DNA from: an uncultured Verrucomicrobiota bacterium
Lineage (GTDB): Bacteria > Verrucomicrobiota > Verrucomicrobiia > Limisphaerales > UBA8199
Direction: 5' to 3'
DNA length: 64,000 nucleotides
Assembly (NCBI GenBank): GCA_964507045.1
Contig: CAZDOO010000001.1
Coordinates: 1 to 64,000 of the forward strand
Shown piece after piece: positions 5,575 to 49,400 of this stretch; within the stretch, counting starts at the first letter, position 1, and each line of letters starts with the position of its first letter. The notes beneath the pieces are model-generated. The model was not told where the DNA came from, ran no database searches, and saw only the letters and a list, made by a program, of their open reading frames with translations. The position numbers and the translations under genes are program-made.

Positions 5575-5660
5575 CAGCCCCCCTCCGTCACCCCTCCCTA
5601 GCACCTCTCATAATCTATGAGAGGTGCTAGGGAGGGGTGACGGTGAGGTGACGGTGAAGT
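5575..5660. repeat. intergenic long hairpin element A (arms of about 26 bp around a 6 bp center) with ggtgacggtgagg repeats
   Basis: cgtcacccctccctagcacctctcat, then the center taatct, then atgagaggtgctagggaggggtgacg. The right arm continues into ggtgaggtgacggtgaag. Confidence 0.7.
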
Positions 5661-5912
5661 AGGCCAGGGGGGAGCGGCATTTGACCCGGATCGGGGGGGT
5701 ACCGGCCTTTGGGGCCAGCCGGACCGGGAGCCGACTCCGGCCCGCAAGGGGTGCGGCGCGCAGGTCGGCCTGTAACAAGTGCCTACAATCCGGTCGGCCG
5801 GGCCAGGAGTTGACCCGGGGGCCGACAAGAATGTCGGCGCCCCGCCGCTTGCAGGAGAGTGAGATGCGCGCCCGATTGCTGGTGCGGCGTCTTTCTGGAA
5901 CCGCCGGTCCGA

Positions 5913-7268
5913 CTACGCCTTGTTCAGCTCCGCGCTGTGCGCCTGCACTTTGCGGATCGCTTCCAGGATGTCGTCCATGGCGCTGCGGTTCGCCAGGAGC
6001 ATGTTCTGGGTGAAGGAAACGGTTGTTTCGCAAACCTGCTTGTTGCCTTTCAACTCCTGGAAGCTGTCGCGGTAGGCCTTGAGCCGCTGGGCGCCCCACA
6101 GCCGCTTAAAGCCGCGCGAGGCGATCGCCTCGTCCAGCAGGCCGTCGTAATACTGCTCCCGATACACGCCTCCGCACGGCACCCCTTCGGCTGCCATCGC
6201 CTTGGCGAATTTCTCCCGCGACAGGCCGTTGAACCGCGCCGCGTCGTAGCGGAAGGAGTAGAGGTGCCACACCGGCCGGCTGTTTTCCGGCAGCCGCACG
6301 GGCGTGATGCCGGGGATTTCCCCGAGGTGGGCGCTCAAGTAGTCGGCGTTTGCCCGCCGGATTTCCGTCTCGCGCACCAGCTTGTCGAGCTGCTGCAAGA
6401 GCACGACCGATTGTGCCTGCGTCATCCGGTAATTATTGCCGCGGGTGAAGCTACCGGTTCCCTTATTCGTTCCGACCGCGCGGCCGCAATTGTGATACGA
6501 GTCGCACTTGTCTATGAGTTCCTCGCTCAGGCTCGTGATCGCCCCGCCTTCGCCGGCGGAAAGATGCTTGGATTCCTGGAAGCTGAAGCACCCCAGGTCC
6601 CCCAGTGTGCCGCACTTGCGGCCCTTGTATTCGGCGAGCCACGCCTGGCAGGCGTCCTCGACCACCGCCAGCTTGTGTTTGCGGGCAATGGCGTTGATCA
6701 GGTCCATCTCGCACGGCATGCCGAAGATGTGCACCGGCATGATGGCGCGCGTCCGCTCCGTGATGCGGCTCTCGATCGAAGCCGGGTCCACGGTCAGCGT
6801 GGCCGGGTCCGTGTCCGCGAACACGGGCAGAGCCATCTGCGTAAGAATGGCGTTGTAACTGGCGATGAAAGTGTAGGGCGAGACGATCACCTCGTCGCCG
6901 GCGTCCACGTCCATGACATGGAGGCTGACGATCAGCGCCGTGGTGCCGCTGGTGGTGGCCAGGCAGCGTTTGGCGTCCAGCAGCCTGGCGTAAGCCTGCT
7001 CGAACTCCGCCACGTGTTCCGCCGTGCCCCGGAACCAATGGCAGCTCCGCCAGACCTTGAGCAGCTCCGGCTCCCACTCTGCGCGCCATTGCGGCCAGGA
7101 CGTCCACCCGCCCTTGTGGACGGGGGTGCCGCCCAGCAAGGCCGGCTTGGCCGCCTCGCCGGCAAATACCCGGGGCGCTTGGCCCGCGCCGAGCCAGGTT
7201 AAGGCCATGGAGCCCGCCGCCGTGGTGCGAATAAAACTGCGTCGTGTTAGTGTGGGATTATTCTTCAT
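5913..7268 (-). CDS. TAT-signal DegT/DnrJ/EryC1/StrS family PLP-dependent aminotransferase
   Basis: Twin-arginine motif RRSFIRTTAAGSMA at the N-terminus. The body matches sugar aminotransferases (SFQESKHLSAGEGGAI has the PLP-lysine context). Confidence 0.8.
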   Translation of the reverse strand: MKNNPTLTRRSFIRTTAAGSMALTWLGAGQAPRVFAGEAAKPALLGGTPVHKGGWTSWPQWRAEWEPELLKVWRSCHWFRGTAEHVAEFEQAYARLLDAKRCLATTSGTTALIVSLHVMDVDAGDEVIVSPYTFIASYNAILTQMALPVFADTDPATLTVDPASIESRITERTRAIMPVHIFGMPCEMDLINAIARKHKLAVVEDACQAWLAEYKGRKCGTLGDLGCFSFQESKHLSAGEGGAITSLSEELIDKCDSYHNCGRAVGTNKGTGSFTRGNNYRMTQAQSVVLLQQLDKLVRETEIRRANADYLSAHLGEIPGITPVRLPENSRPVWHLYSFRYDAARFNGLSREKFAKAMAAEGVPCGGVYREQYYDGLLDEAIASRGFKRLWGAQRLKAYRDSFQELKGNKQVCETTVSFTQNMLLANRSAMDDILEAIRKVQAHSAELNKA

Positions 7269-7561
7269 TGCTTTGCTTCCTGGTCGAGGTTTGTCTGGTT
7301 GTCCAGCATTGCTGCCTGTAATTGTCTCGGCGGTCTTACCGCGCCGCCAATTTGGCCCCGCTCCCGCATCGCGGCAATCCCAAACTGCGCCTCAATCATG
7401 GGGCAGGGAACACAGCGGCGTTGTCGGGTCACGGAGCGATGCCCAAATGCCTGCGCGACCGCAATCCCGCGATCCCTTTGCTGCATTACTGCTCGCCCGG
7501 TTCCCTCCCTTCCCGGCTTTCCACTGGACGGCCTGCGGCCCCGTGTTAGAGTGGCTCAAGC

Positions 7562-8785: not shown

Positions 8786-8968
8786 GCGGGGGAGTCTGAA
8801 ATGCGAAGGCCGACAACCGGTTCACCGGGGTAGGGTGCGTATGGGTTGTGGCGGGGATAAAGGGCAGGTCTCGCCGCTTTTCTGGTCCTGGCGCCGCAAA
8901 ATGTCATCCGGGGATGAACGAATTCCCCGGGTGAGCCCAAGACCCAGGCCCCGAGAGCACGCAGGCAC

Positions 8969-10515: not shown

Positions 10516-10553
10516 GCTGTTAAAGTCCTGATTCGTCGCCTCGCACAATTACG

Positions 10554-10790
10554 CTACCCGCCGGCTTTGCGGCGGCCCACAAAGAAGTAGATCAAGGCTC
10601 CGAGGACGTGCAAGAACAAGACGACCAGAACCCAGATAATCTTCTCGGTATCGTTCAACCTCTGGTTCGTAATCGCGTGGATCAGCATCCAGATCCAGAA
10701 TGCGAACAAGGCAAGGCCGACAACAGCCACAGCCAGCAGCAACAGCATTCCGAATACTCCCGCTCCGGCTGAACCATAAACGTTGTTCAT
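10554..10790 (-). CDS. PLDc_N domain small membrane protein
   Basis: Two TM helices. IIWVLVVLFLHVLGALIYFFVGRRK is typical of the phospholipase-D N-terminal-domain family. Confidence 0.6.
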   Translation of the reverse strand: MNNVYGSAGAGVFGMLLLLAVAVVGLALFAFWIWMLIHAITNQRLNDTEKIIWVLVVLFLHVLGALIYFFVGRRKAGG

Positions 10791-10802
10791 CAGACTCCTC
10801 CG

Positions 10803-12338: not shown

Positions 12339-12380
12339 AGCTTGGATAGGAGTTAAGGGTTACTGGGTGTTTTTGTGATA

Positions 12381-15629: not shown

Positions 15630-15680
15630 CCGGGTGAGGCCGAGTTTCACTGCGTTCCTGCCGGAAGCCCGCCCCTGAGG

Positions 15681-16735: not shown

Positions 16736-16975
16736 TCAATTCCGGGAATTGCCCCTGACTAATCGTGCCTCGTTAGTCTTCAGATATTTCTCCATCGTCT
16801 CGATGCTGCTGGTCTGAATCCGGCGCGCTTGCCCCAGCTCCCGCATCATCCGGTAGTCAATCAACCGTTTGCCCAGCTCCACAATCTGAATATACGCATT
16901 CTCGGTCTTCCATAACTGCCCATTGGCCAAGGCCGGCTGGGACTTCTTTCGATTTGCTCTTACTTTCACGTTCAT
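16736..16975 (-). CDS. small basic hypothetical protein
   Basis: In the same low-GC islet. Start taken at MNVKVRANRKK. No family recognised. Confidence 0.35.
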   Translation of the reverse strand: MNVKVRANRKKSQPALANGQLWKTENAYIQIVELGKRLIDYRMMRELGQARRIQTSSIETMEKYLKTNEARLVRGNSRN

Positions 16976-17070
16976 TGGACGCCTCAAACCCCGGTTTCGT
17001 TCAGATTTCAGGGACCGAAAGCCCCAAATCCAGATTGAAATTGGCCACGGCGAGTCCATTTTGGTGTGGG

Positions 17071-17934
17071 ATGAACGGGATTAGCCCAACTGCGCGCCCG
17101 GTAACCCGGGCGCCCCAGGGCCGGCTGGGGTTGCTGCTGCTGGCGGTTTGCTGGCCCTTGAACTGGGCGCTGCCGGGATTGCGCACTGCTTACCTGTTCT
17201 TTCCTCTATGGCTCGGCTACATTCTCGTGGTGGATGCTCTGGTCGTGCGCCGCACCGGCACCTCACTCTGGACCCGGTCGCGGCGGGACTTCGCGCTGTT
17301 CTTCCTGGCCTCGGCGCCGGCGTGGTGGCTCTTTGAAGCCATCAACCGGCGCACGGGCAACTGGGAATACCTGGGCAGCTCTGCCTTTAGCGACCTCGAG
17401 TACTGCCTGCTCTGCACGATTTCCTTTTCCACCGTCATGCCAGCAGTGTTCGAGACGGCGGAACTGGTGGGCAGTTTTCTCTGGGTGCAGCGCTTTGCCA
17501 GCGGTCCGCGCCTGCAGCCAATCCCGGCGGTGACCAGCGGCATGTTCTTCAGCGGTATCGCCATGCTTGGCTTGACACTGGCCTGGCCGAAATACTGCTA
17601 TCCCTTTGTCTGGACCTCGCTCGTGCTGATTCTCGAGCCGCTGAACTGCTGGCTGGGCCGCCGGCACTTCCTGCAGCATCTCCAGCACGGCGACTGGCGG
17701 CCGGTCATTTCCCTCGGGCTGGGAGCGGTCATCTGCGGGTTCTTCTGGGAGATGTGGAACTACTACGGCTATCCGAAGTGGATATATCACACCCCGGGGG
17801 CGCAGTTCCTTCACGTCTTCGAAATGCCGCTGCTCGGCTATGGCGGCTATGTGCCCTTCGCACTCGAGTTGTGTGCCCTCAAGAACTTTCTCTGGCCTGG
17901 CTCGCCGCGGCTGCGGCTGGGGACTACGGAGTGA
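17071..17934 (+). CDS. polytopic membrane protein, hypothetical
   Basis: About 8 TM helices. Start chosen at MNGISPT; the upstream part of the ORF lies in the low-GC islet. Confidence 0.5.
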   Translation: MNGISPTARPVTRAPQGRLGLLLLAVCWPLNWALPGLRTAYLFFPLWLGYILVVDALVVRRTGTSLWTRSRRDFALFFLASAPAWWLFEAINRRTGNWEYLGSSAFSDLEYCLLCTISFSTVMPAVFETAELVGSFLWVQRFASGPRLQPIPAVTSGMFFSGIAMLGLTLAWPKYCYPFVWTSLVLILEPLNCWLGRRHFLQHLQHGDWRPVISLGLGAVICGFFWEMWNYYGYPKWIYHTPGAQFLHVFEMPLLGYGGYVPFALELCALKNFLWPGSPRLRLGTTE

Positions 17935-18067
17935 TGGAGTATTGGAGTGATGGAGCACGAGCGGCCTGCCGTCCGGTCTCCATTAATCCATCACTCCATT
18001 AACCCATCACTCCGTTTGCCCCGCATTCCCGTTTCCCTTGGCCCGGCCCCTCTGGTAAGCTCCGGGC

Positions 18068-19597
<1,530 letters not shown>

Positions 19598-21055: not shown

Positions 21056-22063
<1,008 letters not shown>

Positions 22064-25213: not shown

Positions 25214-25389
25214 CTTGGCCGCACGGGCGCACTCCGCTGCTTTACGTCAGCAGCCCGTTGAAAAACCGCCGGAACGCCGCGTGGGGGCACGCGGCCTACC
25301 GGATTTCCTCGGAATTCGATACGCATTGTAGGCCCAGTGTCCGCACCGGGCGGGTCTATTAACGGGCTGCCAGGGAAAACGCACTCAAG

Positions 25390-25515
25390 CCAATCCCTCC
25401 GTCCTACCTCCATCCCACCTCCATTATACCTCCATCCTACCTCCATTGTACCTCCATCCATAGACGGAGGTAGGATGGAGGTATAATGGAGGTAGGATGG
25501 AGGTGCAATGGAGGG
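25390..25515. repeat. intergenic long hairpin element B built from tacctccat 9-mers
   Basis: The left arm cctccgtcctacctccatcccacctccattatacctccatcctacctccattgtacctccatcca is complementary to the right arm acggaggtaggatggaggtataatggaggtaggatggaggtgcaatggaggg. Confidence 0.7.
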
Positions 25516-25611
25516 AGCAGCTTGAGGTGGCGACGGTAGCGGCTGCCGGTGCCGCGCGACCAGCCCATTCCAGCATTAGCTGCCGAGGCAACTACTGGTT
25601 GATGGCAGTGA

Positions 25612-25854
25612 TTAACGATAACGCCGCGTGGGGGCAGGCGGCCTGCAAACTTCGTGTAGGCCGCTTACCTCCACGCGGCAGGCCAGGTATTGCCTATTTG
25701 TGCACTCAAGCACTGGATTTTGCCCAGGGGAGGGGCAATGAAGAGGGAGCCCAGGTGAGCTTTGGCCCAGACTCAGCAGTTCAGTTCTCTCACAACTGAC
25801 ACAGTCGGCAACCCCCAAGTCCCCACGATACTCGAGCCGCAGCTTGCGCGACAT
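25612..25854 (-). pseudogene. possible remnant of an IS200-like transposase gene start
   Basis: The ORF begins MSRKLRLEYRG, matching MPRKLRLEYPG of the intact transposase at 28540, then diverges. Speculative. Confidence 0.3.
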
Positions 25855-26155
25855 GCTCCAGCCTTACCCGCACCTCTCGGAAGTGTAAATAGTGAGAACC
25901 GACACTTGCTCTTTTTTTACTGAAAGCGAACCGGGCGTGCTGGGATGAAATACACCCGTTAAACCACGGCCCTGGTTGACTAGGACAGCGCCACGAGGCG
26001 GGCAAGGCGTTTGGGTGTTTAGCGTGACGTAGGCGATCTTTCCTTCGCTTCGAGAAGGATTCGTAGCCGAGAAGCTGATCCAGCGACCACAAAATCGTTG
26101 GCACAGCTTGTGCCTTGGTTGGCGTGTGAGGTTCATTTTCGCCGCATTAACCGTG

Positions 26156-27562
26156 TCACTTCGGAAACGGGCGTTGCGTGTAGTAAATCGGCCACGGGGG
26201 TTGGTTCAATTTTCTCAAACCGGGAGAGATTTGCTGCAGATTCAACTGGCCTTGAGTGTATAGCAGATGAATGACCCCGTTCTGGAGAACGACCTGTGGT
26301 TCACCAGATGTGAGTCCGTCCTTTGCCGCATCGGTCACTTTGAGGATGCGCGACCACGTTTTACCACCGTCGTTGCTGGTGATGTAATAAATGTCGTTTG
26401 GATCATTTGCACTCTGCGCTTTCTTGCGGGCTTCGATTCCAGCCCACGCGATCACAACGTTCTGTCCTTCGACCGACATGCTGGGGGAATAAGCGTAGGT
26501 CAACCCTTTTGAAAGAACCACATCCTTGCTCCAACTGTTTTCTCCGTCCCTGCGATTGCAATAGGCGATCTCGTAATTTTCGCGGCGAGGTGCCTGCAAA
26601 TTCAAATTCCATTTCTCGCGTCGGCAATCCATCCAACACAAATGAACCGTGTCGTCCGCTGTCTTCGCGACATACCGGCCGCGTGCTCTCGCAAGGTTTC
26701 TTGTCACTGTCACAGGCGGGGTCCACGAGTTGCCGTCCACCGGCTTCTGAGAAGACCACACATCGTGTCCCTTTCCGTCGGCCAAGCTCATCCCGAAATA
26801 ATAATACTGCCCTCTGGTTCTACAGACTGAAGCGTAAGAGGTGTACGTCTGCGAGATGGACTGGACTTGCCAACTCTTTCCTGAATCAGGAGAATAAAAC
26901 ACTCCGTTGCTAAAAGGGCCATCTGTGACTCCATTGATTCCAAAGTACGTTAGTGCCCGAATACAATAGGCGATGTGAATGTCCAAACCGTGAGAATGTT
27001 CCATCAAAGGTGGTCCCAAAACCGGCCAGCGACGGCTTCCAGGTTCGTTTAATGTCACATTCTGCTCTGTTACTCCAAAGAACGTCTTTTTGGCTATACC
27101 CCATTTCCTTTCCGCTTCCATTCGAGCCTTACCGCTTGCGCTGAGACCGACTACGTACAGCTCCATTGAAAGTTGGTCATTCTCCATGGTCCCCTGTTGA
27201 AACAGTATCTTATCGCTGGATGCATCAAATCCGGGTTCATACCAAGTGGTGAGAGGAAACTTAGGAAGTGATACTTCCGACCAGGAACTACCATCTTGAT
27301 TCAGGAGGAAGCATTCTTGACCTTGTAATCTGATGGTCGTCGCGTTCCACTTGCGAAGGAGCACGCCTCCACTTAGTCCACTTTGACTTTCTGCCACTCT
27401 GTTTGCTGATGTCCAACCTTGGGCATTCCCCGCCCGCTTGCTACAACCAATCAACGTGCATATAATGCACGCAGGCAGCACGATTACCAAAGCGAGGCGA
27501 TCTTTAGTTCTCATTGAAGCCATCAATGGGGTCAGACCGTAGAAACGCCTGTTCGTGTTCAT
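26156..27562 (-). CDS. BNR/Asp-box repeat lipoprotein, sialidase-like beta-propeller
   Basis: Lipobox ICTLIGC. The Asp-box motifs SPDSGKSW and SNDGGKTW are present. The gene is about 50% GC against about 62% for its neighbours. Confidence 0.6.
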   Translation of the reverse strand: MNTNRRFYGLTPLMASMRTKDRLALVIVLPACIICTLIGCSKRAGNAQGWTSANRVAESQSGLSGGVLLRKWNATTIRLQGQECFLLNQDGSSWSEVSLPKFPLTTWYEPGFDASSDKILFQQGTMENDQLSMELYVVGLSASGKARMEAERKWGIAKKTFFGVTEQNVTLNEPGSRRWPVLGPPLMEHSHGLDIHIAYCIRALTYFGINGVTDGPFSNGVFYSPDSGKSWQVQSISQTYTSYASVCRTRGQYYYFGMSLADGKGHDVWSSQKPVDGNSWTPPVTVTRNLARARGRYVAKTADDTVHLCWMDCRREKWNLNLQAPRRENYEIAYCNRRDGENSWSKDVVLSKGLTYAYSPSMSVEGQNVVIAWAGIEARKKAQSANDPNDIYYITSNDGGKTWSRILKVTDAAKDGLTSGEPQVVLQNGVIHLLYTQGQLNLQQISPGLRKLNQPPWPIYYTQRPFPK

Positions 27563-27568
27563 GATTCT

Positions 27569-28540
27569 TCATGAGATATCCAGTTGAATCTGTGAAATGT
27601 CGGCTGCGCGGCCATTCATGTATTTGTGCAGGTTGGTTCTTGCGCCTTTGGGCTGCCCCAGATGCAAACGCTCAGCGATCTGCTTGACCGATAGGGTCGT
27701 CTCCTGCCGCAAACGTGCTGCCAGCGCCAGCTTCGCGGGGTGGCTCCTCTGCCGTGCCAACAGGTCTTTTTCGGCCCAGCCGAGCCGTGCCAGTTCTTCC
27801 GCAACAATTCGCTCGGCCTTGGTTTCCGCGGTTTCCAGCCTGATCTGGCCAGGATGGTTCTCGCCCACCTTGCCTTCCATCTGCTCCAAGCACTCCCGCC
27901 GGGAGACCTCGCTGCCGATGGACCAGGCTCGCCGAAACTCCTGCGGGGCTGCCTCGTCCACCTCGTCCAGCCGACCCCGCTCCATTTGGCGCTCAAACTC
28001 CTGCCGCCCCGCCGGCGTGTCCTGCTGGATCCCATGCTCGCCCAGCAGACGATCCACACGCAACCATCGCGGCCGATGCGCGGTGGCGGCCAAGTACGGC
28101 ACAAAGCTGCTCCAGGGCCAGGCCAGGAGCCGGTCTTCCGGCGCGAGCAACTTGGCGCGGATGGGGTTCAGGTGAACGTAATCGCATGCCTCCCGCAAAT
28201 AGCCGTTGCCGCTGCCCTCCACCAGTTGCGCCTTGTAACGACCGCTCAAGACGTGGCCGGTGAGCTGGTGGCGGTTGTTGAGGCGAATGGTATAGGTGCT
28301 CTGCAACCACGCCATGCCGGAAACCAGATTGGCGTTCGGAGTCTCAAGGACCAGATGATAGTGGTTGCGCATCAGGCAATACGCGTGCACTTGCCAGCCG
28401 GTCTTCTGGCACGCTTGGGCCAGCGTCTTGATGAAGTCGTGCCGGTCCACGTCGTCCAGGAAGATGTCCTCACGCTGGTCGCCACGGCTCATAACGTGAT
28501 ACATCGCACCGGGGTATTCAAGGCGCAGCTTCCGAGGCAT
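27569..28540 (-). CDS. IS200-like Y1 (HUH) transposase with C-terminal DnaA-C-like HTH domain
   Basis: MPRKLRLEYPGAMYHVMSRG and HAYCLMRNHYHLVLE are the HUH motif and Y1 region. The C-terminal part resembles a helix-turn-helix. Confidence 0.75.
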   Translation of the reverse strand: MPRKLRLEYPGAMYHVMSRGDQREDIFLDDVDRHDFIKTLAQACQKTGWQVHAYCLMRNHYHLVLETPNANLVSGMAWLQSTYTIRLNNRHQLTGHVLSGRYKAQLVEGSGNGYLREACDYVHLNPIRAKLLAPEDRLLAWPWSSFVPYLAATAHRPRWLRVDRLLGEHGIQQDTPAGRQEFERQMERGRLDEVDEAAPQEFRRAWSIGSEVSRRECLEQMEGKVGENHPGQIRLETAETKAERIVAEELARLGWAEKDLLARQRSHPAKLALAARLRQETTLSVKQIAERLHLGQPKGARTNLHKYMNGRAADISQIQLDIS

Positions 28541-28675
28541 GCTCGCCAGATACTCCGCCGGCGGGAGGCTGTCAACAGCAGAAAACCCCGCCAAACCAAG
28601 CGCCACCTCTTGACGGCTGCGTGCGTTTCTACGGTCTGACTCTATCGAGGTGTTTCAGCGAGAAAGGGCGGCGGG

Positions 28676-32310: not shown

Positions 32311-32621
32311 AAGATTATTCACGTGTCGGCCACATGGTCGGCGCGGCGGGGCATCTGTCAATCCTCTTCCCGCGGCAGCTCGGAGCCGGTGACATGGAAC
32401 GAAGATCCTGGCCGAACCTTGCCGTCCGGCCGGGCCTGAGTTACGGCGCTGACAATCTCCACCCCAAGTGTACGGAATGCCCTGTAACAAGGCTCTTAAA
32501 TGGGCCCGAGTCCCCAATCCGTTAACCATCCGCAGCCAGTTTGTGAAGCAGGAGACGCGGCATTGGGGCGCATTTCGGCACTGCCACCCCATCCCACACG
32601 GGAAATCCCTGTATTCCTCTC

Positions 32622-32758
32622 GGATTGGCCGGTCCGGGCGGCCAGGAATGCGGGCCATGCTCAAGCCGGGGTAGTACCGCTCTGTACCGGCTCACCTCAC
32701 CGCATACTCACCTTAGATAACATTGTTATCTAAGGTGAGGATACGGTGAGGGTGGGTT
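32622..32758. repeat. repeat element C: 80 bp flank plus a cctcacc-repeat hairpin; a copy of the element at 49251-49400 (inverted)
   Basis: ggattggccggtccgggcggccaggaatgcgggccatgctcaagcc...ggctcacctcaccgcatactcaccttagataaca ttg ttatctaaggtgaggatacggtgagggtgg. Confidence 0.75.
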
Positions 32759-33029
32759 GGAGATACGCGGTTCGGAAGGCGCGGGACCGATTTCATCCGT
32801 CCCTGTGGTTTATTGGCCTTTTCGGCCTGGAAGTATATGAGACGCCATATACTGCGCGAGCCAGGTCTCATTAACACCCTGCTTTAGCGGGGTGTTAATG
32901 ACACGTATCAGCGGTGCCGAAAGAATCTGTCCTGCGCCCTGCACGCGGGCAGGGGGCCACGCGGGAACCTTGCCTCTCTGAATTCTGGCCGAGGTTTGGA
33001 TGTGCGCGGACGCCGGCTCTGCCCGGGCC

Positions 33030-42149: not shown

Positions 42150-42514
42150 CGAAACACCCCCGCGCCGTCGGTTCGCAGCGCCAGTGCTGTCGTTTAAGGG
42201 CTCATCCGAGAAGTTTGTTCTTGGGATGGCCTTTTCGCGCTACTTCAACCACTTGGGAGGGGGAATTCCCTGGCAGCCCATTCAAATAGCAGCAGCCGAC
42301 GCAAGGGCGTGTTGCCCAAACCCCTTGATGGGCGAGCGTTCTCGCGAGCCCTAATTTCCGCAGAAATCCAAAGGTGTTTGGGCTCGCGGGGACGCGCGCC
42401 CTCCCAGTAAACCGTGCAGGCGGGTTGGGTCTCACACGCCCTTACGCCTGCTGCGTCTTTGACGGGTTCCTGGCGCAACGGTGTCCATAGGCGGAACTTG
42501 CCCAGCCCATTGCC

Positions 42515-42635
42515 GTATCCCCCAGTAATCCCCCAGTAATCCCCCTCTATACCCCCTGTATTCCCCCTCTATTCTAATAGAAGGGGTATACAGGGGGAAT
42601 ACAGGGGGTATAGAGGGGGAGTAGAGGGGGATTCG
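42515..42635. repeat. intergenic long hairpin element D built from ccccct-containing 8-9-mers
   Basis: cccccagtaatcccccagtaatccccctctataccccctgtattccccctctattc taat agaaggggtatacagggggaatacagggggtatagagggggagtagaggggg. Confidence 0.7.
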
Positions 42636-43099
42636 GTGGGGATATGGCGCGGCCAAGGCCAGCATGAGCATTCCATCGAAAACAACGAAGAACCGCCGCG
42701 CCCAGGTAATTACTTTGATTCCAGGTAGTTACGCAAACCACGCCGTCACCACACCGTCGCGCTAGACACAGATGTGACACCCCGGGGCTTTTTCCGGCCC
42801 AGTTGCCATGCCGGAAAGGCGCTTTGGGGGGAGCAACTCACTTCCGTGGCATGCCTGTTCGGCGAGGAGCAGTTCCGGCGGAGCGCCGCTCGTTTCCGTG
42901 GCCGCTGCCCACGCCTCAAGGTGTCAATTTGCGACTCTGAACGCCGGATGTCCTTTGCCTTAGCAGCTTGCGCGAAGCGCATAGCCGCGTGGGGATGGTC
43001 CGAGTCAGGGGAATTGGTGGCAGGGGAATGGAACGTTCTCCCCATCCCCGTGGGGATGGTCCGCTGTAGTGCGTGTCATCCGGCGGCGGCGTTCGTCGG

Positions 43100-43404
<305 letters not shown>

Positions 43405-43422
43405 TCGAAGGATGAACCCGGC

Positions 43423-43968
43423 ATGAAGACCGACGCTCTTGCACTCCAGGCTGAACGGCGAATCCTCTCGGTCCGCAAGCAGAGAGTCATGCTGAGCGAT
43501 GATCTCGCCGCGCTCTACGGTGTCGAGACCAAGGCTCTGAACCGTGCAGTTAAGAGGAATGTCGAGCGTTTCCCAGACGATTTCATGTTCCAACTGACCG
43601 GCGAAGAGTGGGGTGACTTGAGGTGCCAGATTGGCACCTCAAGTTGGGGTGGCAGCCGGGTCCCGCCTTACGCCTTCACCGAGCAGGGGGTGGCTATGCT
43701 ATCCAGTGTGCTGCGCGGTTCCCGTGCTGTGCAGGTCAACATCGCCATCATGCGCGCCTTTGTGCGCCTGCGTGAAATGCTCCTCACCAACGCCGACCTG
43801 GCTCGCAAACTGGCCGAGTTGGAGCGCAAGTACGACACCCAGTTCAAGGCGGTTTTCGACGCTATCCGCCAGCTCATGGCGCCGCCGCCCGCGCCGCCTA
43901 AACCCGAAATCGGCTTCCACGTCAAGGAAGAGGCCGTTCCCTACCGGATCGGCAGGCGGCGGCGTTAG
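43423..43968 (+). CDS. ORF6N domain protein with ORF6C-like C-terminal domain
   Basis: [39 protein letters not shown] and [15 protein letters not shown] are ORF6N signatures. A C-terminal coiled region resembles ORF6C. Confidence 0.75.
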
Positions 43969-44105
43969 TCATCGCTGAGGCTTGCTTACTGCTCCCGAGG
44001 CCAACCGGCAAAGTCTAAAGCCCAAGGCGGAACGTGGACCCGCTCACGGTCCTTGAGCGTTGAAGCAGTTGCCAAGGGCGCTTCTCTCCGTCACAGTAGG
44101 GGCGG

Positions 44106-45662
44106 ATGAGCAAGCGCTTTTACATCACGACCGCCATTGACTACGTCAACGGCCACCCGCATCTCGGCCATGCCTATGAGAAGGTGGTCGCCGACGTCAT
44201 CGCCCGCGCACGCCGCAGCCTGGGACAGGAGACGTTCTTTCTGACGGGCCTGGACGAGCACGGGCAGAAAGTCCAGCAGGCGGCACTGGCGGCAGGCAAG
44301 ACCCCGCAGGCCTACTGCGATGAACTGGCGGCGGTGTGGCGGGCGTTCGCCGGCAAGTTGGACTTGACCAACGACGACTTCGTCCGCACCACCCAGGCGC
44401 GGCATAAACAGGTCGTGCAGGCGATCCTCACCAAGCTTCATGCCGAGGGGCACTTTTACAAGGAAGCCTATTCCGGTTTCTATTCGACTCGCCAGGAAAC
44501 CTTCCTGACCCATAAAGACCGTTTGCCGGATGGCACCTTTGACCCGTCCTGGGGGGAGGTCGTGGAACTCAAAGAGGAGAATTACTATTTCAGGCTCAAG
44601 GACCACCAGCAGTGGCTGATTGATCACATCGAGCAGAATCCGTCCTTCATCAGCCCCGCGCCGCGCCGGAACGAAGTGCTCGGCTTCCTTAAGAACAACG
44701 TGCTGGAAGACCTGTGCATCAGCCGGCCCGCCTCGCGCCTCAATTGGGGCATCCCGCTGCCGTTCGATCCCGACTACGTCACCTACGTCTGGTTCGACGC
44801 GCTCTCCAACTACATCACCGTACCCGCCGCCCAGGGCGATCCCGGTGTCCCGGAACCTTTCCGCCCTCAACCCTCAACCCTCAACGCTCAACTCCCCCTG
44901 TGGCCTGCCGACATCCACGTCATCGGCAAGGACATCGTGAAGTTCCACAGCGTCTATTGGCCGATCATGCTTAAGGCGATGGGCGCGCCGTTGCCCAAAC
45001 AGGTGCTCGTCCACGGCTGGTGGCAGAAGGACGGCCAGCGGATGAGCAAGAGCACCGGCAATGTCGTGGACCCGGTCGCGGTCATAGACGAGTGGGGCGT
45101 GGACGCGTTCCGCTTCTACGTGCTGCGGGAATTGGACATCGGCCCCGACGGCAACTGGACGGAGGCTGGGTTCAGGGCGCGCTACTCGGCAGAACTGGCT
45201 AACGGCCTGGGCAACCTGGTGAACCGCTCGCTCTCGATGCTCAAACGCTACCGCAACGGCGTCGTGCCCAAGGCCTCAAACGAACTGGCGCCAGACGCGG
45301 AGAAGGCAATCGCCGAAACCCGCAGCCTGCTGGAGCAGAACCAACTCCAGGGCGCGCTCCAGGCCATTTGGTCGCTGGTTACGCGGGCCAATCAGTATGT
45401 GGACCACACCGCGCCGTTCAAACTGGCCAAGGACCCTTCCCAGGCCGCGCGCCTGGATGAGGTCCTGTATAACCTGACAGAGGTCTGCCGGATTCTCGCG
45501 GTGCTGCTCTGGCCGTTCCTGCCAGGCACGGCGGGGAAGATTTACGCGCAACTCGGCCTGCCCGGCGAGCCGGACAAAGCCTCGGCGGCGCGCTGGGGCG
45601 GACTGCCGGCAGGGCATGCCATCGGGGCTCCCGCCCCGCTGTTCCCGCGAAAGGAGACCTGA
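44106..45662 (+). CDS. metG: methionyl-tRNA synthetase
   Basis: HLGH is the HIGH motif and RMSKSTGN is the KMSKS motif. It contains the in-frame heptamer tract PFRPQPSTLNAQLP. Confidence 0.9.
   Translation: MSKRFYITTAIDYVNGHPHLGHAYEKVVADVIARARRSLGQETFFLTGLDEHGQKVQQAALAAGKTPQAYCDELAAVWRAFAGKLDLTNDDFVRTTQARHKQVVQAILTKLHAEGHFYKEAYSGFYSTRQETFLTHKDRLPDGTFDPSWGEVVELKEENYYFRLKDHQQWLIDHIEQNPSFISPAPRRNEVLGFLKNNVLEDLCISRPASRLNWGIPLPFDPDYVTYVWFDALSNYITVPAAQGDPGVPEPFRPQPSTLNAQLPLWPADIHVIGKDIVKFHSVYWPIMLKAMGAPLPKQVLVHGWWQKDGQRMSKSTGNVVDPVAVIDEWGVDAFRFYVLRELDIGPDGNWTEAGFRARYSAELANGLGNLVNRSLSMLKRYRNGVVPKASNELAPDAEKAIAETRSLLEQNQLQGALQAIWSLVTRANQYVDHTAPFKLAKDPSQAARLDEVLYNLTEVCRILAVLLWPFLPGTAGKIYAQLGLPGEPDKASAARWGGLPAGHAIGAPAPLFPRKET
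44864..44898 (+). repeat. (CCCTCAA)3 plus degenerate units inside metG
   Basis: ccctcaaccctcaaccctcaacgctcaactccccc, encoding PQPSTLNAQLP. Confidence 0.9.
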
Positions 45663-45699
45663 GCTGCCATGAAACGCATTTGCTGCAGCCGATGGTGGA

Positions 45700-45792
45700 G
45701 AACATTCAACAACCAACATCCAACATTCAACATCCAATGGGGGCCATGGGGACTGTTCTTGGATGTTGGGCGTTTGATGTTGGATGTTGGAA
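45700..45792. repeat. intergenic long hairpin element E built from caacatc/gatgttg units
   Basis: aacattcaacaaccaacatccaacattcaacatccaa, then a 21 nt loop, then ttggatgttgggcgtttgatgttggatgttgg. Confidence 0.7.
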
Positions 45793-45818
45793 GTTGCCTA
45801 ACTTCATGGGGAAGGAGG

Positions 45819-47630
45819 ATGTTCGACCGTCTGCGGCTGCCGCTATTGCGAACCACGCTCGGCTGCACGTTTGGGGCTGTGGTGCTTTCCACGTCCCTCT
45901 ATTCCCAGACCCTTGACCTGCCTCCCCGTGCCACCAACGCCCTGAGCGGGACGGAGTTTGCCCGGCGCATCGCGCCGCTGGGCTTGGCCGAGCGCGAGAA
46001 GGAGATCTTTACCCAAATCACTTCCGGCAACGTCCCCAACTTCCTGCGCAGACTGTCTCCCGTGCCGGCCAGGAGTGTCGTTGAGGGCAAGATTGACAGC
46101 GGCACATACTTTGTGACGCCGGATTACCTGGCCATCGGCTCCGACGACGACTATTTCCTGACGCCGATTTCGCCCAATACCGCCCAGCGGATCGCCGACG
46201 CGCTGCACTGCACGCTGCCCACGCCCAAAATGGTGAACCAAATCTTCTTTGCCTCCGAGGTTAAGCTGGTTCCCGCGCCCATACCGCCCAGCGCGGCTAT
46301 GACTACCGTCCCGGTCTTCAGTAACCACAACGACCTTGTCCGCACCCAGCGGGCGGAGCAGTTGAAAGCGCATCCCTTGGGCGCGCTGGTCGCCGGGCAC
46401 CAGAAAGACGTTGTAATCACGGCGAAGCTGGCCTCGAACCCCGGCAAGGTGGCCATCTATGGCTGGCACCAGACCAACGGCCAGCCCATCCAGCCCCTTT
46501 ACCTGAAACACTCGGCATCCTGGGTTGACTACAGCCAATGCACCCGCCTCGTGCAGCAGAAGATGACGGTGAACGGCGCGACCAAAACGGTCGCCGAAGT
46601 CCTGGCCGACCCGGCTCTGGCGGGCTTGCTGAGCGACGAAGGACCCGTGCCTGACCCGCGCTATCCCACCAACGCCTTGCTGTCACTCCAAACCCTGACC
46701 AATACCGCCAGCTTGAACCAGCTCGTCGCAAACCCCACCTTCAACGAGCGCCTCACCGCCTTCACCTTCAACCCGGACGTCAAAGTCCGCGTGAACCTGC
46801 CCGGGGAGTCGTCCTTCGCCGCCGGCAAGAAGGTGTTGCTGATCTTCTACGCGCTGCCCAACGGCAACACCACCGACCAGACTGCCGGCAAAATCATGAA
46901 GCCCGGCGACGACTGGCACTTCAACATCCAGCACATTGCCGCGCAAACGCGCTTCCTGCGCGACCTGCTCAAAGACCGCGCGGTGGTGGTAGTTTACCTC
47001 GAAGCCGCCGGGAAGAGCTGGCCGGCCTGGCGCAAAGCGCACGGGGACAAGCTGATCCCCGAGATCGTGGCCACCGTGAAGAAGCTCTTTCCCGCGCGCG
47101 AAGTGGACACCGTTCTAAGCGGACACAGCGGCGGCGGCAGCTTCATCTTCGGCTACCTCAATGCCGTGGACAAGATTCCCGACGACGTGACGCGCATCGC
47201 CTTCCTGGACAGCAATTATGCTTACGACCGCGCCCTGGGCCATAAGGATAAGCTCGTGAAATGGCTGGAGGCTCCGGGTCAACACAGCCTTTGCGTGCTC
47301 GCCTACAACGATGCCGTGGCGCTGCTCAATGGCACGAACTTCGTCAGCGCCGCGGGCGGCACCTGGGGCAAGAGCCACGCCATGCAGCGCGACCTGGCCG
47401 CAGACCTCAAGTTCACCACGCAGACCAACGCTGACTTCGAGAGATTCACCGCGCTCGATGGGCGCGTGCAATTCATCCTGAAGGAGAATCCGGAGAAGAA
47501 GATCTTTCACACCGTGCAAGTGGAGCGGAACGGCTTCATCCACAGCATGGTTTCGGGCACGACCAACGAGGGGAAGGGCTACGAGTACTTCGGCCCGCGC
47601 GCCTACTCGAACCTGATCCAGGCCGAGTAG
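45819..47630 (+). CDS. large secreted hypothetical protein
   Basis: Signal peptide MFDRLRLPLLRTTLGCTFGAVVLSTSLYS. About 600 aa with no recognised catalytic motif. Confidence 0.55.
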   Translation: MFDRLRLPLLRTTLGCTFGAVVLSTSLYSQTLDLPPRATNALSGTEFARRIAPLGLAEREKEIFTQITSGNVPNFLRRLSPVPARSVVEGKIDSGTYFVTPDYLAIGSDDDYFLTPISPNTAQRIADALHCTLPTPKMVNQIFFASEVKLVPAPIPPSAAMTTVPVFSNHNDLVRTQRAEQLKAHPLGALVAGHQKDVVITAKLASNPGKVAIYGWHQTNGQPIQPLYLKHSASWVDYSQCTRLVQQKMTVNGATKTVAEVLADPALAGLLSDEGPVPDPRYPTNALLSLQTLTNTASLNQLVANPTFNERLTAFTFNPDVKVRVNLPGESSFAAGKKVLLIFYALPNGNTTDQTAGKIMKPGDDWHFNIQHIAAQTRFLRDLLKDRAVVVVYLEAAGKSWPAWRKAHGDKLIPEIVATVKKLFPAREVDTVLSGHSGGGSFIFGYLNAVDKIPDDVTRIAFLDSNYAYDRALGHKDKLVKWLEAPGQHSLCVLAYNDAVALLNGTNFVSAAGGTWGKSHAMQRDLAADLKFTTQTNADFERFTALDGRVQFILKENPEKKIFHTVQVERNGFIHSMVSGTTNEGKGYEYFGPRAYSNLIQAE

Positions 47631-47691
47631 CCGCCGCCTCTCAGGAGGGCGAGCGTCCCCGCAAGCCCTGATCCCTATCCCGGCCAGCCGC

Positions 47692-49104
47692 TCAACGCAA
47701 CCAGCCTTTGGCTACAAAGAAGTAGAGGCAGGTCACCATCCCCATGCCAACGGCGAAGGTCACCTGCGGCAAGGTGAAAGGCCAGGGATTATCCGACAGG
47801 TTCATGCCGAAAAGCCCCCCCACCACCGCCGGGATCAACCCCAGCACACTGACAACGGCCAGCACGCGCATCACGCGGTTCATTTCGAACGAAACGACGT
47901 TCAGATGCAGTTCGATGAGCGAGAGAACGCCTTCCCGCACATTGGTGACCGTCTCGTAGAGGTAATCGGCGGTGTCCGAGAGCTCGCCCAGGAAGGGGAG
48001 CTCGCCCCCGTCGCTGCCGGGAAGTTTGACGCGCGACTCGGCCAGCGCCTTGAGGACCCCGCGCAGCCGCCACAAATCCGACTGGGCGGCGGAAAGCTCC
48101 TTCTTCAAGCGGAACGTGCGCTCGAAGAACTGCTGCCGGCTCTCGCGCACCGGCAGCTCCTCCAGTTTGCCGAGTTCTGCTTCAAACAGGCCGACCAGGG
48201 CCTCGTCGGCTTCCAGCACTGTCTTCAAGAACTGACACGCCGTGCGGACGGGAAAGGGCAGGGCCGCAAACCGGCCTGTCGCCCGGCTGGCAATCTTCTC
48301 CATCAGGTGAACCGGCTGGCGGGCGAAGGTGACGACACTTTTGTCGCTTGCCATCAGCAGCAAGCCGTTCCGTTGAATCTGCTTATCAAACGATCCTTCC
48401 GCCAGCCAAACAAAGAGGGAAAGATAGCGATCCGTGGCTTCAATGTGCGGATAGCTGGTGCCAAGCAAATGGGCGGCGATAAACTCCCGGGGGATGCCCG
48501 ACGCGCTCGCGACCTCGGGCAGGTTGTGCTGGCCTACATTGGCGATGCTGTACCATTCCGTTCCCGGGTGCTTGGCCCACTGGACAAACTCCTCCCACGT
48601 GGCCGCGCGTGGTTTGGCCTCGCCGCTGGCGGGAAGCATGCGGACCAGCATCGGGTCCGGGGCGCGCTGCGCCACCGCCGCGCTTTCCTCCCGGGTTATG
48701 ACCCCGCTGGCGCGCGCCCCGAGCGCCAGCACGCGAGCCAGGCGCACCAGTCGCAACACCGGCGAAGAACGCAGGACCTCCGATGCCCCAGGCAACAGGG
48801 TCGCCAACGGAATCAAAACGGTGGCGGCATCTACCACGCGCCACGGGTTGAGCACGAAGCTCTGCTTTGAACTCGCCCGCGCCAGGCCGACCCCGTACTC
48901 GATAGCGAACAGCGCAATGATGGACCATTGACCCGTCTCCAGCAGCGCCTCGACGTGGGGGGAGGTCTGGAACAGCATCGGGACGAGTGTCAGCGCCGCT
49001 GACACGATGGCCAGAAAGCCGAGAAAGACTTCGCCGAGAACAAAGCGCACGACGGGGTTGAGGCCCCGGAGCGCAGCCGTATTAAGCAGGTTGCTGTTAT
49101 CCAT
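47692..49104 (-). CDS. CorA-like divalent-cation transporter fused to an N-terminal ion-transport (voltage-sensor-like) membrane domain
   Basis: The C-terminus LFGMNLSDNPW plus two TM helices is CorA-like (a GMN motif). The N-terminus has several TM helices including an Arg-rich segment, LRLVRLARVLALGAR. Confidence 0.6.
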   Translation of the reverse strand: MDNSNLLNTAALRGLNPVVRFVLGEVFLGFLAIVSAALTLVPMLFQTSPHVEALLETGQWSIIALFAIEYGVGLARASSKQSFVLNPWRVVDAATVLIPLATLLPGASEVLRSSPVLRLVRLARVLALGARASGVITREESAAVAQRAPDPMLVRMLPASGEAKPRAATWEEFVQWAKHPGTEWYSIANVGQHNLPEVASASGIPREFIAAHLLGTSYPHIEATDRYLSLFVWLAEGSFDKQIQRNGLLLMASDKSVVTFARQPVHLMEKIASRATGRFAALPFPVRTACQFLKTVLEADEALVGLFEAELGKLEELPVRESRQQFFERTFRLKKELSAAQSDLWRLRGVLKALAESRVKLPGSDGGELPFLGELSDTADYLYETVTNVREGVLSLIELHLNVVSFEMNRVMRVLAVVSVLGLIPAVVGGLFGMNLSDNPWPFTLPQVTFAVGMGMVTCLYFFVAKGWLR

Positions 49105-49250
49105 CACATCAGCCGTGGACGATACAGGCTGACAAACCAGCGGTGCAAAGCATAATTGTCTCGCGTGTCGGCTCCGCCCATCTCGACACCATCCCCCCAG
49201 GAGCTCGGCCGGACTCCCCCTCCCCCTGACCCTGGCACCGGCGCATCTCC

Positions 49251-49400
49251 GTAGCCTCACCGTCACCTCACCGTAGTACCTCTGATAGCCTATCAGAGGT
49301 ACTACGGTGAGGATACGGTGAGGTGAGCCAGAAGAGAGGGATATTACCCAGGCCTGAGCATGACCCGCATTCCGGGCCGCCCGGGCCGGCCAATCCAAAG
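49251..49400. repeat. repeat element F: cctcacc-repeat hairpin plus an 80 bp flank; an inverted copy of element C
   Basis: cgtagcctcaccgtcacctcaccgtagtacctctgatag cc tatcagaggtactacggtgaggatacggtgaggtgagcc, followed by sequence about 85% identical to the reverse complement of 32622-32700. Confidence 0.75.

What the first reader, a model, noticed from the sequence alone, without database searches (positions are those of the whole stretch)
5575..49400. Six intergenic long hairpin elements, each built from its own short tandem oligomers
Elements A to F lie at 5575-5660, 25390-25515, 32689-32758, 42515-42635, 45700-45792 and 49251-49329. Each is 80 to 125 bp, and the two arms are imperfect reverse complements. 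Within each arm a 6 to 9 bp unit is tandemly repeated, and the unit differs between elements: ggtgagg/ggtgacg in A, C and F; tacctccat in B; ccccctnta in D; caacatc in E. This is unlike classical short REP sequences or CRISPR repeats. They look like long hairpins produced by replication slippage, or a MITE-like family. The window also encodes an HUH/Y1 transposase (27569..28540). That enzyme class mobilises hairpin substrates, so a RAYT-like relationship is conceivable.
Basis: seen in the sequence. Interest (0 to 1): 0.7.

Follow-up and report, generated by a model that had tools for sequence, protein, structure and literature searches.

The report
Dispersed palindromic repeats with tandem-module arms
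The six hairpins are real (there is a seventh), and at least four belong to multi-copy families of about 100-bp palindromic DNA repeats scattered between genes in soil and peat Verrucomicrobiota: an unusual variant of REP/MITE-type repeats, probably not functional RNAs.

Summary
All six elements are near-perfect 80-140 nt palindromes (fold z -5 to -14), and a seventh lies at 17919-18022.

They are not one-off slippage products:
- A and F share a conserved core (ccGTAGtACCTCTnATAGsCTATnAGAGGTaCTACgg).
- In this family the core is flanked by 3-5 modules of exactly 11 nt (CCnCnCCGTnn).
- Modules differ between copies, but the two arms stay Watson-Crick complementary: 534 compensatory cells against 212±14 in shuffles.
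- C has the same arms and flanks as F but a different core.
- B and D share only the 11-nt architecture.
- E belongs to a second recurrent family, (AACATCC)5-loop-(GGATGTT)5.

The evidence points to DNA-level elements rather than RNA. There is no G:U excess, no strand or 3'-end bias, no U-tract and no Rfam match.

Copies at unrelated loci share only the hairpin. Orthologous copies persist and change by 11-nt module indels and paired substitutions. E is missing at the orthologous site in relatives.

Tests did not support a link to the nearby Y1 (RAYT-like) gene.

Verdict: a new variant of REP/REPIN/foldback-MITE-like repeats. The mechanism of spread is unknown.

The parts
5562..5663 (.). Element A: class-I hairpin. 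Core 5598-5630 (CTAGCACCTCTCATAATCTATGAGAGGTGCTAG), arms of 11-nt modules.
   Evidence: Covariance model R1 gives 82.9 bits, E 1e-17. The same core variant occurs in L245 and L185.
17919..18022 (.). It starts 15 nt before the stop codon of ORF 16954-17934.
   Evidence: DNA fold z = -7.3. No relatives among the fetched loci.
25384..25526 (.). Element B: hairpin whose arms are five 11-nt units (nACCTCCATnn), with a 22-nt super-period and no canonical core.
   Evidence: R1 gives 70 bits, but unrelated hairpins reach 48-57 bits, so family membership is inconclusive.
32677..32770 (.). Element C: hairpin with the same CCTCACCGT arms and flanks as F, but a different palindromic core (TTAGATAACAtTGTTATCTAA).
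   Evidence: R1 gives 36.7 bits. Alignment with F.
42512..42648 (.). Element D: hairpin of 11-nt units (TCCCCCTnTAt). It lies in a 1.9-kb stretch that relatives lack.
   Evidence: R1 gives 57.7 bits, inconclusive. The gap between the DLH esterase gene and the methionyl-tRNA synthetase (MetRS) gene is 1956 nt here and 135 nt in L121.
45701..45796 (.). Element E: class-II hairpin, (AACATYC)5-loop-(GGATGTT)5.
   Evidence: The family recurs in L141, L146, L147, L148, L184, L202 and L235. It is absent at the orthologous junction between MetRS and the next gene in L121, L124 and L125.
49237..49341 (.). Element F: canonical class-I hairpin, core GTAGTACCTCTGATAGCCTATCAGAGGTACTAC.
   Evidence: R1 gives 81.4 bits. 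The core is found in L114 and in 120 metagenome loci.
49342..49470 (+). About 130-nt tail that follows F. A second copy follows C. It contains GAGCATGnCCCGCATTCCnGGCCGCCCGGnCCGGCCAATCC.
   Evidence: Not found in any fetched locus.
32548..32676 (-). Second copy of the same tail, following C on the minus strand.
27569..28606 (-). Y1/HUH (IS200-like, RAYT-like) gene. It is a neighbour only; a functional link to the hairpins was tested and not supported.
   Evidence: Pfam Y1_Tnp E 1.6e-11. NCBIfam REP_Tyr_transpos 52.6 bits, below the cut-off of 80..
25623..25679 (.). Short GC-rich inverted-repeat doublet of the classical REPIN kind, a different repeat family.
   Evidence: I20. R1 gives only 18 bits. 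A similar element is in L124.
42330..42401 (.). Second REPIN-like doublet (GGGCGAGCG..CTCGCGAGCCC).
   Evidence: I19. Relatives are in L216 and L226.

Best explanation
The elements are DNA-level dispersed palindromic repeats of a soil/peat Verrucomicrobiota lineage, in the REP/REPIN or foldback-MITE class.

Two classes:
- Class I (A and F; C with a swapped core; B and D share only the architecture). These have an AT-rich perfect palindromic core flanked on each side by 3-5 modules of 11 nt, CCnCnCCGTnn. The 5' arm is C-rich and the 3' arm G-rich on both strands.
- Class II (E, perhaps G). These have arms of 7-8-nt units.

Shown:
- The whole hairpin of about 100 nt is the unit shared between unrelated intergenic sites.
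- Once at a site, a copy persists over species-level divergence.
- It changes by gain or loss of whole 11-nt modules on one arm, and by paired changes that keep the arms complementary.

Inferred:
- Module gain and loss comes from replication slippage.
- Arm complementarity is maintained by intramolecular template switching (quasipalindrome correction) or by gene conversion between arms or between copies, seeded at the identical 33-bp core. This would explain why pairing and conservation decay outward from the centre.
- New sites are seeded by an enzyme acting in trans on a single-stranded hairpin. Its identity is unknown. A Y1/HUH enzyme is one candidate, with no positive evidence.
For: Family and copy number.

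Position profile of 103 copies:
- The 11-nt period is clear.
- Pairing falls from 100% in the core to about 90, 75, 65 and 45% in modules 1 to 4.

Covariation:
- 86.2% of cells are paired, against 75.7% when shuffled and 36-46% when slid.
- 35 of 51 pairs show double changes.
- There are 534 compensatory cells against 212±14 in shuffles (0 of 500 reach the observed value).

DNA level rather than RNA level:
- Mismatches are not enriched for G:T.
- In 40 co-directional gene contexts the sense strand has 13 G:U against 17 A:C mismatches, and the centre orientation is 20 C against 19 G.
- Contexts are 38 tandem, 12 convergent and 11 divergent, against a background of 358, 100 and 90.
- No Rfam hit reaches the gathering score.

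Dispersal. Unrelated loci share 85-116 nt at 92-96% identity, confined to the hairpin.

Persistence and change in place. Orthologue sets differ by exact 11-nt indels on one arm and by paired A-T to G-C switches. Adjacent modules are at least 10/11 identical in 13.8% of cases, against 4.0% for controls.

Gain or loss. E, and the region holding D, are absent in syntenic relatives.

Specificity. The covariance model finds nothing in 728 kb of unrelated genomes.
Against: - No filled-versus-empty site pair was obtained for a class-I element. Its ends, target site and any duplication are therefore unknown, and no target-site duplication was visible.
- Sharing of inner hairpin segments between loci could come from ectopic gene conversion rather than transposition.
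- The core is more conserved than the flanking intergenic DNA across orthologues. This could mean host function rather than selfish spread.
- No mobilising enzyme was identified.
- Recurrence of B, D and G was not shown.
- The taxonomic assignment rests on names that sources give to homologous proteins.
Confidence: 0.6

Rival explanations
1. REPIN/RAYT system. The hairpins are mobilised as single-stranded DNA by the Y1/HUH tyrosine transposase encoded at 27569-28606 (or a paralogue), as REPINs are by RAYTs.
For: - A Y1_Tnp gene is in the window. Its best NCBIfam model is REP_Tyr_transpos over the full profile.
- JGI names homologues 'REP element-mobilizing transposase RayT'.
- Each exact variant sits in a single genomic context, as for single-copy RAYTs.
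- The core stem is bracketed by GTAG...CTAC, and most modules carry CCGTAG/CCGTAT.
- GTAG-tagged REPs are known in Verrucomicrobia (PMC3733652).
Against: - The score of 52.6 bits is below the curated 80-bit cut-off.
- No hairpin lies next to the gene in the window.
- There is no hairpin or model hit in about 40 kb around homologues in three contexts.
- In 767 kb of element-bearing loci, only one degraded homologue was found.
- The same genomes hold classical GTAG REP doublets, which are the more natural partners of such a gene.
- GTAG here is base-paired, unlike the unpaired tag of REPs.
Confidence: 0.15
2. Host-recruited DNA structural or protein-binding sites. A palindromic nucleation site would be flanked by CCG motifs phased once per helical turn (11 bp), extruding as cruciforms or binding a nucleoid protein, in the way BIMEs bind IHF and gyrase.
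For: - CCG/CGG is conserved every 11 nt, with variable positions in between.
- The core is more conserved than the flanks in orthologues whose flanks are 82-95% identical.
- The elements are strictly intergenic and symmetric, with no strand bias.
- An 11-bp period is the reported helical signal of supercoiled bacterial DNA (PMC4132750).
Against: - Binding to duplex DNA does not require the variable positions of the two arms to be complementary, yet they covary strongly.
- No candidate protein is known.
- Close relatives lack the elements in about 33 kb of syntenic DNA.
- E-type and other families use 7-8-nt periods.
Confidence: 0.15
3. Functional RNA hairpins: factor-dependent terminators, mRNA 3'-end stabilisers or small-RNA precursors.
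For: - Predicted RNA hairpins are very stable.
- Most copies lie between co-directional or convergent genes.
- REPs are known to stabilise mRNA (PMC3733652, background section).
Against: - There is no U-tract after any element.
- 18% of copies lie in divergent promoter regions, as expected by chance.
- There is no G:U excess on the sense strand and no orientation preference.
- Rfam gives only sub-threshold miRNA-like hits.
Confidence: 0.1
4. Independent local origin. Each hairpin would arise at its own locus by slippage of a short unit followed by snap-back (template-switch) palindromisation, with no dispersal.
For: - B, D and G have private units and no relatives in the 1.9 Mb of fetched DNA.
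- B and D show young 22-nt tandem duplications.
- Analogous hairpins with tandem-repeat arms occur in unrelated MAGs: L092 (Bacteroidaceae) and L111 (Tepidisphaeraceae).
Against: - This is refuted for A, F and E, which share cores or loops with many unlinked loci.
- C and F share 260 nt.
- For B, D and G the fetched DNA comes from other genomes, so absence there says little.
Confidence: 0.1

Closest known systems
REP / REPIN elements with RAYT transposases (Proteobacteria; GTAG REPs of Opitutus terrae, PMC3733652; REPINs, PMC3116915)
   Same: - High-copy, extragenic palindromic repeats forming hairpins of about 100 nt.
- A GTAG motif at the foot of the central stem.
- Long vertical persistence at loci.
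- A Y1-family gene in the genome.
   Different: - REPs are 20-40-nt units with an unpaired GTAG tag. REPINs are two such units around a variable spacer.
- Here the centre is the conserved part. The arms are arrays of 11-nt modules that differ between copies but covary.
- No RAYT flanked by the elements was found.
Bacterial MITEs (Correia/NEMIS, RUP, ERIC, Nezha and others)
   Same: Small, non-coding, multi-copy, intergenic, able to fold, and polymorphic for presence between relatives.
   Different: - MITEs have terminal inverted repeats matching a parent insertion sequence, and target-site duplications. Neither was seen here.
- MITE arms are not tandem arrays.
Eukaryotic foldback (FB) transposons (Drosophila FB, plant SoFT). 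Cited from my own knowledge, not checked in a paper.
   Same: The architecture: long inverted repeats that are themselves built of short tandem subrepeats, with variable repeat number between copies.
   Different: FB elements are kilobase-sized, eukaryotic, and sometimes carry coding sequence. No homology is implied.
Quasipalindrome template-switch mutagenesis (Ripley model; E. coli lacZ reporters). A mechanism, not a family; cited from my own knowledge.
   Same: One event copies a change from one arm to the other. This gives paired 'compensatory' changes without selection on RNA, as seen between orthologues.
   Different: It is known as a mutational hotspot mechanism. It has not been described as the maintenance process of a repeat family.
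Cyanobacterial STRR heptanucleotide tandem repeats. Cited from my own knowledge.
   Same: Heptamer arrays such as (AACATCC)n and (CCCTCAA)n, both intergenic and in-frame within genes.
   Different: A different phylum and different units. STRRs are not described as paired inverted arrays forming a dispersed family with a conserved loop.

Membership tests
REP/REPIN-RAYT system | High-copy, extragenic palindromic repeat | tested here: met
61 of 65 classifiable copies are intergenic.
REP/REPIN-RAYT system | Unit is a 20-40-nt imperfect palindrome with an unpaired terminal GTAG (or CGTC) tag; a REPIN is two inverted REPs | tested here: not met
   GTAG is present in about 80% of copies but is paired with CTAC. 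The arms are 11-nt tandem modules, not palindromic REP units.
REP/REPIN-RAYT system | Cognate single-copy RAYT gene flanked by its REPs or REPINs | tested here: not met
   The Y1 gene scores below NCBIfam's cut-off. No hairpin lies in its flanks in the window. None lies in about 40 kb around homologues.
REP/REPIN-RAYT system | The RAYT cleaves or binds the repeat as single-stranded DNA | not testable with these tools
   This needs biochemistry.
MITE (derived from a DDE insertion sequence) | Terminal inverted repeats shared with an autonomous insertion sequence, and target-site duplication | tested here: inconclusive
   No duplication is visible at the homology boundaries of seven non-orthologous pairs. 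However, exact ends are undefined and no empty site is available for class I. No parent insertion sequence was found.
Intrinsic (Rho-independent) terminator | GC-rich stem followed by a U-tract at gene 3' ends, strand-specific | tested here: not met
   There is no T-run. 18% of copies are in divergent regions. There is no orientation bias.
Any Rfam RNA family | Covariance-model score at or above the gathering threshold | tested here: not met
   Only two tRNAs reach the gathering score in the window. The F region gives sub-threshold miRNA-like hits of 12-28 bits against thresholds of 49-90.
Class-I modular hairpin family defined here (model R1) | Core ACCTCTnATAnnCTATnAGAGGT plus 11-nt CCnCnCCGTnn modules | tested here: met
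   This holds for A (82.9 bits) and F (81.4 bits). C (36.7 bits) has the arms but another core. B (70) and D (57.7) are inconclusive, because unrelated hairpins score 48-57 bits.
Class-II heptamer hairpin family, (AACATCC)5-loop-(GGATGTT)5 | Five heptamers per arm, AAT...ATT junctions, a related 17-21-nt loop | tested here: met
   E matches copies in L141, L146, L147, L148, L184, L202 and L235. G does not.
Integron attC sites | Array next to intI, one site per cassette, R''/R' core sites | not tested
   The Pfam and NCBIfam scans covered only the genes flanking the elements. No integrase or recombinase turned up among them, and those neighbours are housekeeping genes. The rest of the window was not scanned, and R''/R' core sites were not searched for. 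I dropped this idea on that weak basis.

The most novel reading that the evidence does not exclude
Class-I elements may be a previously undescribed kind of bacterial foldback element that grows from the inside. On this reading, a palindromic core (with or without inner modules) repeatedly homes into, or replaces, the centre of an existing hairpin. Arms are extended one 11-nt helical turn at a time by a dedicated hairpin-processing enzyme. The result is onion-like layers whose age increases outward.

This would explain several observations:
- The outward decay of pairing and conservation.
- The same arms carrying different cores: C against F, and other cores in L138, L152, L213, L238 and L241.
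- Homology between copies ending at module boundaries, with module-like but unrelated sequence outside.
Probability: 0.12. Interest if true: 0.75.

Novelty: new variant of a known kind. Interest (0 to 1): 0.45.

Why it matters
- It adds a well-populated, easily modelled repeat family to a phylum whose small repeats are little studied. I found only short GTAG REPs of Opitutus terrae described.
- The family has an unusual design: a conserved palindromic core with 11-nt modular arms that vary yet covary. That makes it a natural system for measuring slippage and arm-to-arm template switching in wild genomes.
- It is a practical warning. Strong 'compensatory covariation' can arise in DNA palindromes without any RNA function.
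- Logan short-read contigs of the source genome end 70-100 nt before two of these hairpins, B and C. 55 of the 120 metagenome copies lie too close to an end of the fetched stretch to be classified.
- If a dedicated mobilising or module-adding enzyme exists, it would be a new hairpin-DNA processing activity.

Tried and rejected
- My single genome-contig scan used GGTGAGGNNNCGGTGAGG, which was too degenerate. 119 loci came back, almost all chance hits in high-GC genomes. It was useful only for L114, L092 and L111, and as a negative-control background.
- RNA function was rejected on four grounds: no G:U excess, no orientation bias, no context bias and no Rfam match.
- Clustering of class-I elements with other hairpin families was rejected. 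8 of 109 have another hairpin within 500 nt, against about 8% expected.
- Synteny around FeoB was fetched to look for an empty site for C or B. In relatives at about 82% identity the synteny is not conserved downstream of FeoB, so no comparison was possible.
- A phmmer search of the Y1 protein against PDB sequences gave nothing significant.
- The core is absent from PLSDB plasmids and from viral contigs.
- Literature text searches for the exact sequences, and for bacterial foldback-type repeats, found nothing relevant.
- Searching the protein database with spurious ORFs across B and D, to find more copies, was considered and dropped as low-yield.


Full report
**Check of the observation.** Each folds into one long hairpin. 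As RNA the energies are -48 to -97 kcal/mol, with z = -5.3 to -14.1 against dinucleotide shuffles. As DNA, z = -5.3 to -12.4. The repeat finder recovers them as the longest inverted repeats in the window. It adds a seventh at 17919-18022, with GGAGTGAT-type arms and the G-rich arm first. Tandem Repeats Finder shows that the arm period is 11 nt (22-nt super-period) in A, B, D and F, 7 nt in E and 8/16 nt in G. A simple hairpin scan finds 5 hairpins of score >=22 in the 64-kb window. It finds 6 in 875 kb of unrelated, mostly high-GC genome loci.

**Host and setting.**
- The window is about 62% GC.
- The genes flanking the elements are housekeeping genes: methionyl-tRNA synthetase (MetRS), FeoB, UbiD, a GH127 hydrolase, DegT, and the PII-Amt-GlnA cluster, plus two tRNAs.
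- The nearest homologues of MetRS (80-98% identity) and FeoB carry source names of Verrucomicrobiota MAGs.
- Two Logan contigs from run SRR10083296 are identical to the window. They end 70-100 nt before hairpins B and C.

**A and F belong to a large family.** One locus from my otherwise wasted genome scan is L114, a soil MAG. It carries a 103-nt hairpin with the core of F and a paired G-C to A-T change. Many hits come from one sample, and others from peat- or bog-type samples. Every copy has the same plan:
- a perfect palindromic core, ccGTAGtACCTCTnATAGsCTATnAGAGGTaCTACgg;
- 3-5 modules of exactly 11 nt on each side, with left-arm consensus CCnCnCCG(T/g)nn.

**Profile and covariation.** A profile of 103 unique copies shows Watson-Crick pairing of 100% in the core. 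Pairing falls to about 90, 75, 65 and 45% in modules 1 to 4, and reaches background beyond about 62 nt. On an 89-sequence alignment:
- 86.2% of cells pair, against 75.7±0.4% in shuffles and 36-46% in slid registers;
- 35 of 51 pairs show changes on both sides;
- there are 534 compensatory cells against 212±14 in shuffles (0 of 500 reach the observed value).

**Covariance model.** Model R1 scores A at 82.9 bits and F at 81.4 bits. It finds nothing at E<0.01 in 728 kb of unrelated genomes. B (70 bits) and D (57.7 bits) also score. However, unrelated GC-rich hairpin families in the metagenome loci reach 48-57 bits. I therefore count B and D as sharing the 11-nt architecture and polarity, not as proven members.

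**C is a special case.** C and F are homologous over about 260 nt: left flank, arm modules and a tail of about 130 nt on the right. Their palindromic cores differ.

**E belongs to a second family.** It has the form GG(AACATCC)5AAT, a 17-21-nt loop, then ATT(GGATGTT)5CC, with matched variant heptamers in the two arms. It occurs in at least seven other loci.

**DNA or RNA?** The evidence favours DNA.
- At variable positions the non-paired cells are mostly transversion-type. G:T is no commoner than A:C.
- In 40 copies lying between co-directional genes, read on the sense strand, there are 13 G:U, 17 A:C and 92 other mismatches. The asymmetric centre base is C in 20 copies and G in 19.
- Copies lie in tandem, convergent and divergent intergenic regions 38:12:11, against a background of 358:100:90. 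Gene 3' ends are not preferred and promoter regions are not avoided.
- None of the elements is followed by a T-run.
- Rfam gives nothing at the gathering score, and only sub-threshold miRNA-like hits at a relaxed threshold.

**Dispersal and evolution in place.**
- Pairs of copies with unrelated flanks share 85-116 nt at 92-96% identity, confined to the hairpin. The boundaries fall at module boundaries, and no target duplication is visible. The hairpin, arms included, is therefore what is copied between sites. This could be by transposition, or by conversion seeded on the identical 33-bp core.
- Two sets of orthologous copies, with flanks 82-95% identical, show that a copy stays at its locus for a long time. 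They differ by exact 11-nt indels on one arm, by paired A-T to G-C switches, and by inversion of the centre.
- Adjacent modules in one arm are at least 10/11 identical in 13.8% of cases, against 4.0% for modules from different copies. That is the footprint of local tandem duplication.
- In syntenic relatives (MetRS 89-92% identical), the spacer between MetRS and the next gene is 2-23 nt. In the window it is 156 nt and holds E. The DLH-MetRS gap is 135 nt in relatives. In the window it is 1956 nt and holds D. These relatives have no such hairpins in about 33 kb.

**The Y1 gene.**
- ORF 27569-28606 has a Y1_Tnp domain. Its best NCBIfam model is the RAYT equivalog, but at 52.6 bits against a cut-off of 80.
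- Homologues are very common, and JGI often names them RayT. Each exact variant occupies one genomic context.
- The flanks of the gene in the window hold no hairpin.
- About 40 kb around homologues holds no hairpin of score >=14 and no R1 hit.
- The element-rich metagenome loci hold only one degraded homologue.
- The same genomes also carry classical GTAG REP doublets, one of them polymorphic for presence. These are the kind already described in Opitutus terrae (PMC3733652) and are more plausible partners of such a gene.
- The RAYT link is therefore not supported, although action in trans cannot be excluded.

**Interpretation.** The best-supported reading is that these are lineage-specific families of DNA-level palindromic dispersed repeats.
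- Shown: family membership, modular anatomy, Watson-Crick covariation, lack of RNA signatures, sharing between unlinked loci, persistence, and module-wise change at orthologous loci.
- Inferred: slippage as the source of module gain and loss; intramolecular template switching or gene conversion as the source of arm complementarity and of the centre-outward gradient; and a trans-acting enzyme working on hairpin DNA for seeding new sites.
- Rivals: RAYT-mobilised REPINs, host structural sites phased at 11 bp, RNA hairpins, and purely local origin (still open for B, D and G).
- Most novel reading not excluded: inside-out growth by core homing, suggested by identical arms carrying different cores.

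**Comparison and novelty.** In behaviour the elements resemble REP/REPINs and MITEs. In architecture they resemble eukaryotic foldback transposons. They fail the defining REP and RAYT features that could be tested, and show no terminal repeats or target duplications of MITEs. Text searches for the sequences and for comparable bacterial elements found nothing. The library is incomplete, so novelty is provisional. I rate this a new variant of a known kind, of moderate interest.

Noticed in passing
window 18533-18565, 21087-21117, 44864-44892: Perfect heptamer arrays (CCCTCAA)4-5 lie in frame inside three protein-coding genes: UbiD, an amidohydrolase-like gene and MetRS. They encode ..PSTLNPQPSTL... 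The complement is (TTGAGGG)n, with at least four G3 runs. In MetRS the array occupies a hypervariable loop of fixed length. Relatives read RPQPSTVN.., RPQPAVPNPQL.., as if derived from the same array.
   Followed up: partly
window 49342-49470 (+) and 32548-32676 (-): A conserved sequence of about 130 nt follows both F and C. It includes GAGCATGnCCCGCATTCCnGGCCGCCCGGnCCGGCCAATCC and has predicted internal stems. It is absent from all fetched loci and its nature is unknown.
   Followed up: partly
L220 about 2255 and L238 about 14070: Two different class-I hairpins are interrupted at the same point of the right arm (ACTACGGTGAG|ACCTCTGAGGTAATCCGGCAATCATG...) by the same sequence. Both contigs end soon after. 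This may be an insertion sequence that targets the hairpin.
   Followed up: no
window 25623-25679 and 42330-42401; L136 2255-2330 against L172: A separate family of classical REPIN-like GC-rich doublets occurs in the same genomes (GGTAGGG..., with a GTAG tag). One copy is present in L136 and L208 but absent from the orthologous site in L172.
   Followed up: partly
window 50478-50552: A different 33-nt-arm palindrome (AAATAGCCGCGAAAAGGCGCAAGAAGCTC...) with 85% complementarity. R1 gives 27 bits. It was not characterised.
   Followed up: no
window 26001-28000: GC drops to 0.53. ORF 26156-27562 (468 aa, weak BNR_2 match) has GC3 of only 0.55 and sits 6 nt downstream of the Y1 gene. The pair Y1 plus the 468-aa gene is conserved in other samples. 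This may be a foreign or mobile gene pair.
   Followed up: no
window 42150-44105: A 1.9-kb stretch between the DLH esterase and MetRS genes is absent from relatives. It holds D, a REPIN-like doublet and an ORF with a weak match to a phage Rha-family regulator (43423-43968).
   Followed up: no
L092 3449-3539; L111 about 6511-6607: Hairpins whose arms are tandem GGTGAGG-type repeats also occur in a Bacteroidaceae MAG (G-rich arm first) and in a Tepidisphaeraceae MAG. Hairpins with tandem-repeat arms may therefore arise in several phyla.
   Followed up: no
L159 about 12713 and about 7485: An (AACATCC)5 array runs directly into an (ACGCTCC)n heptamer array. The stretch looks like the 5' part of two paralogous membrane-protein genes.
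   Followed up: no
L001, L246 (Logan contigs of the source genome): Short-read contigs identical to the window end 70-100 nt before hairpins B and C. 55 of the 120 metagenome copies lie too near an end of the fetched stretch for both flanking genes to be seen. This fits assemblies breaking at these repeats, but it was not tested against contig ends.
   Followed up: partly
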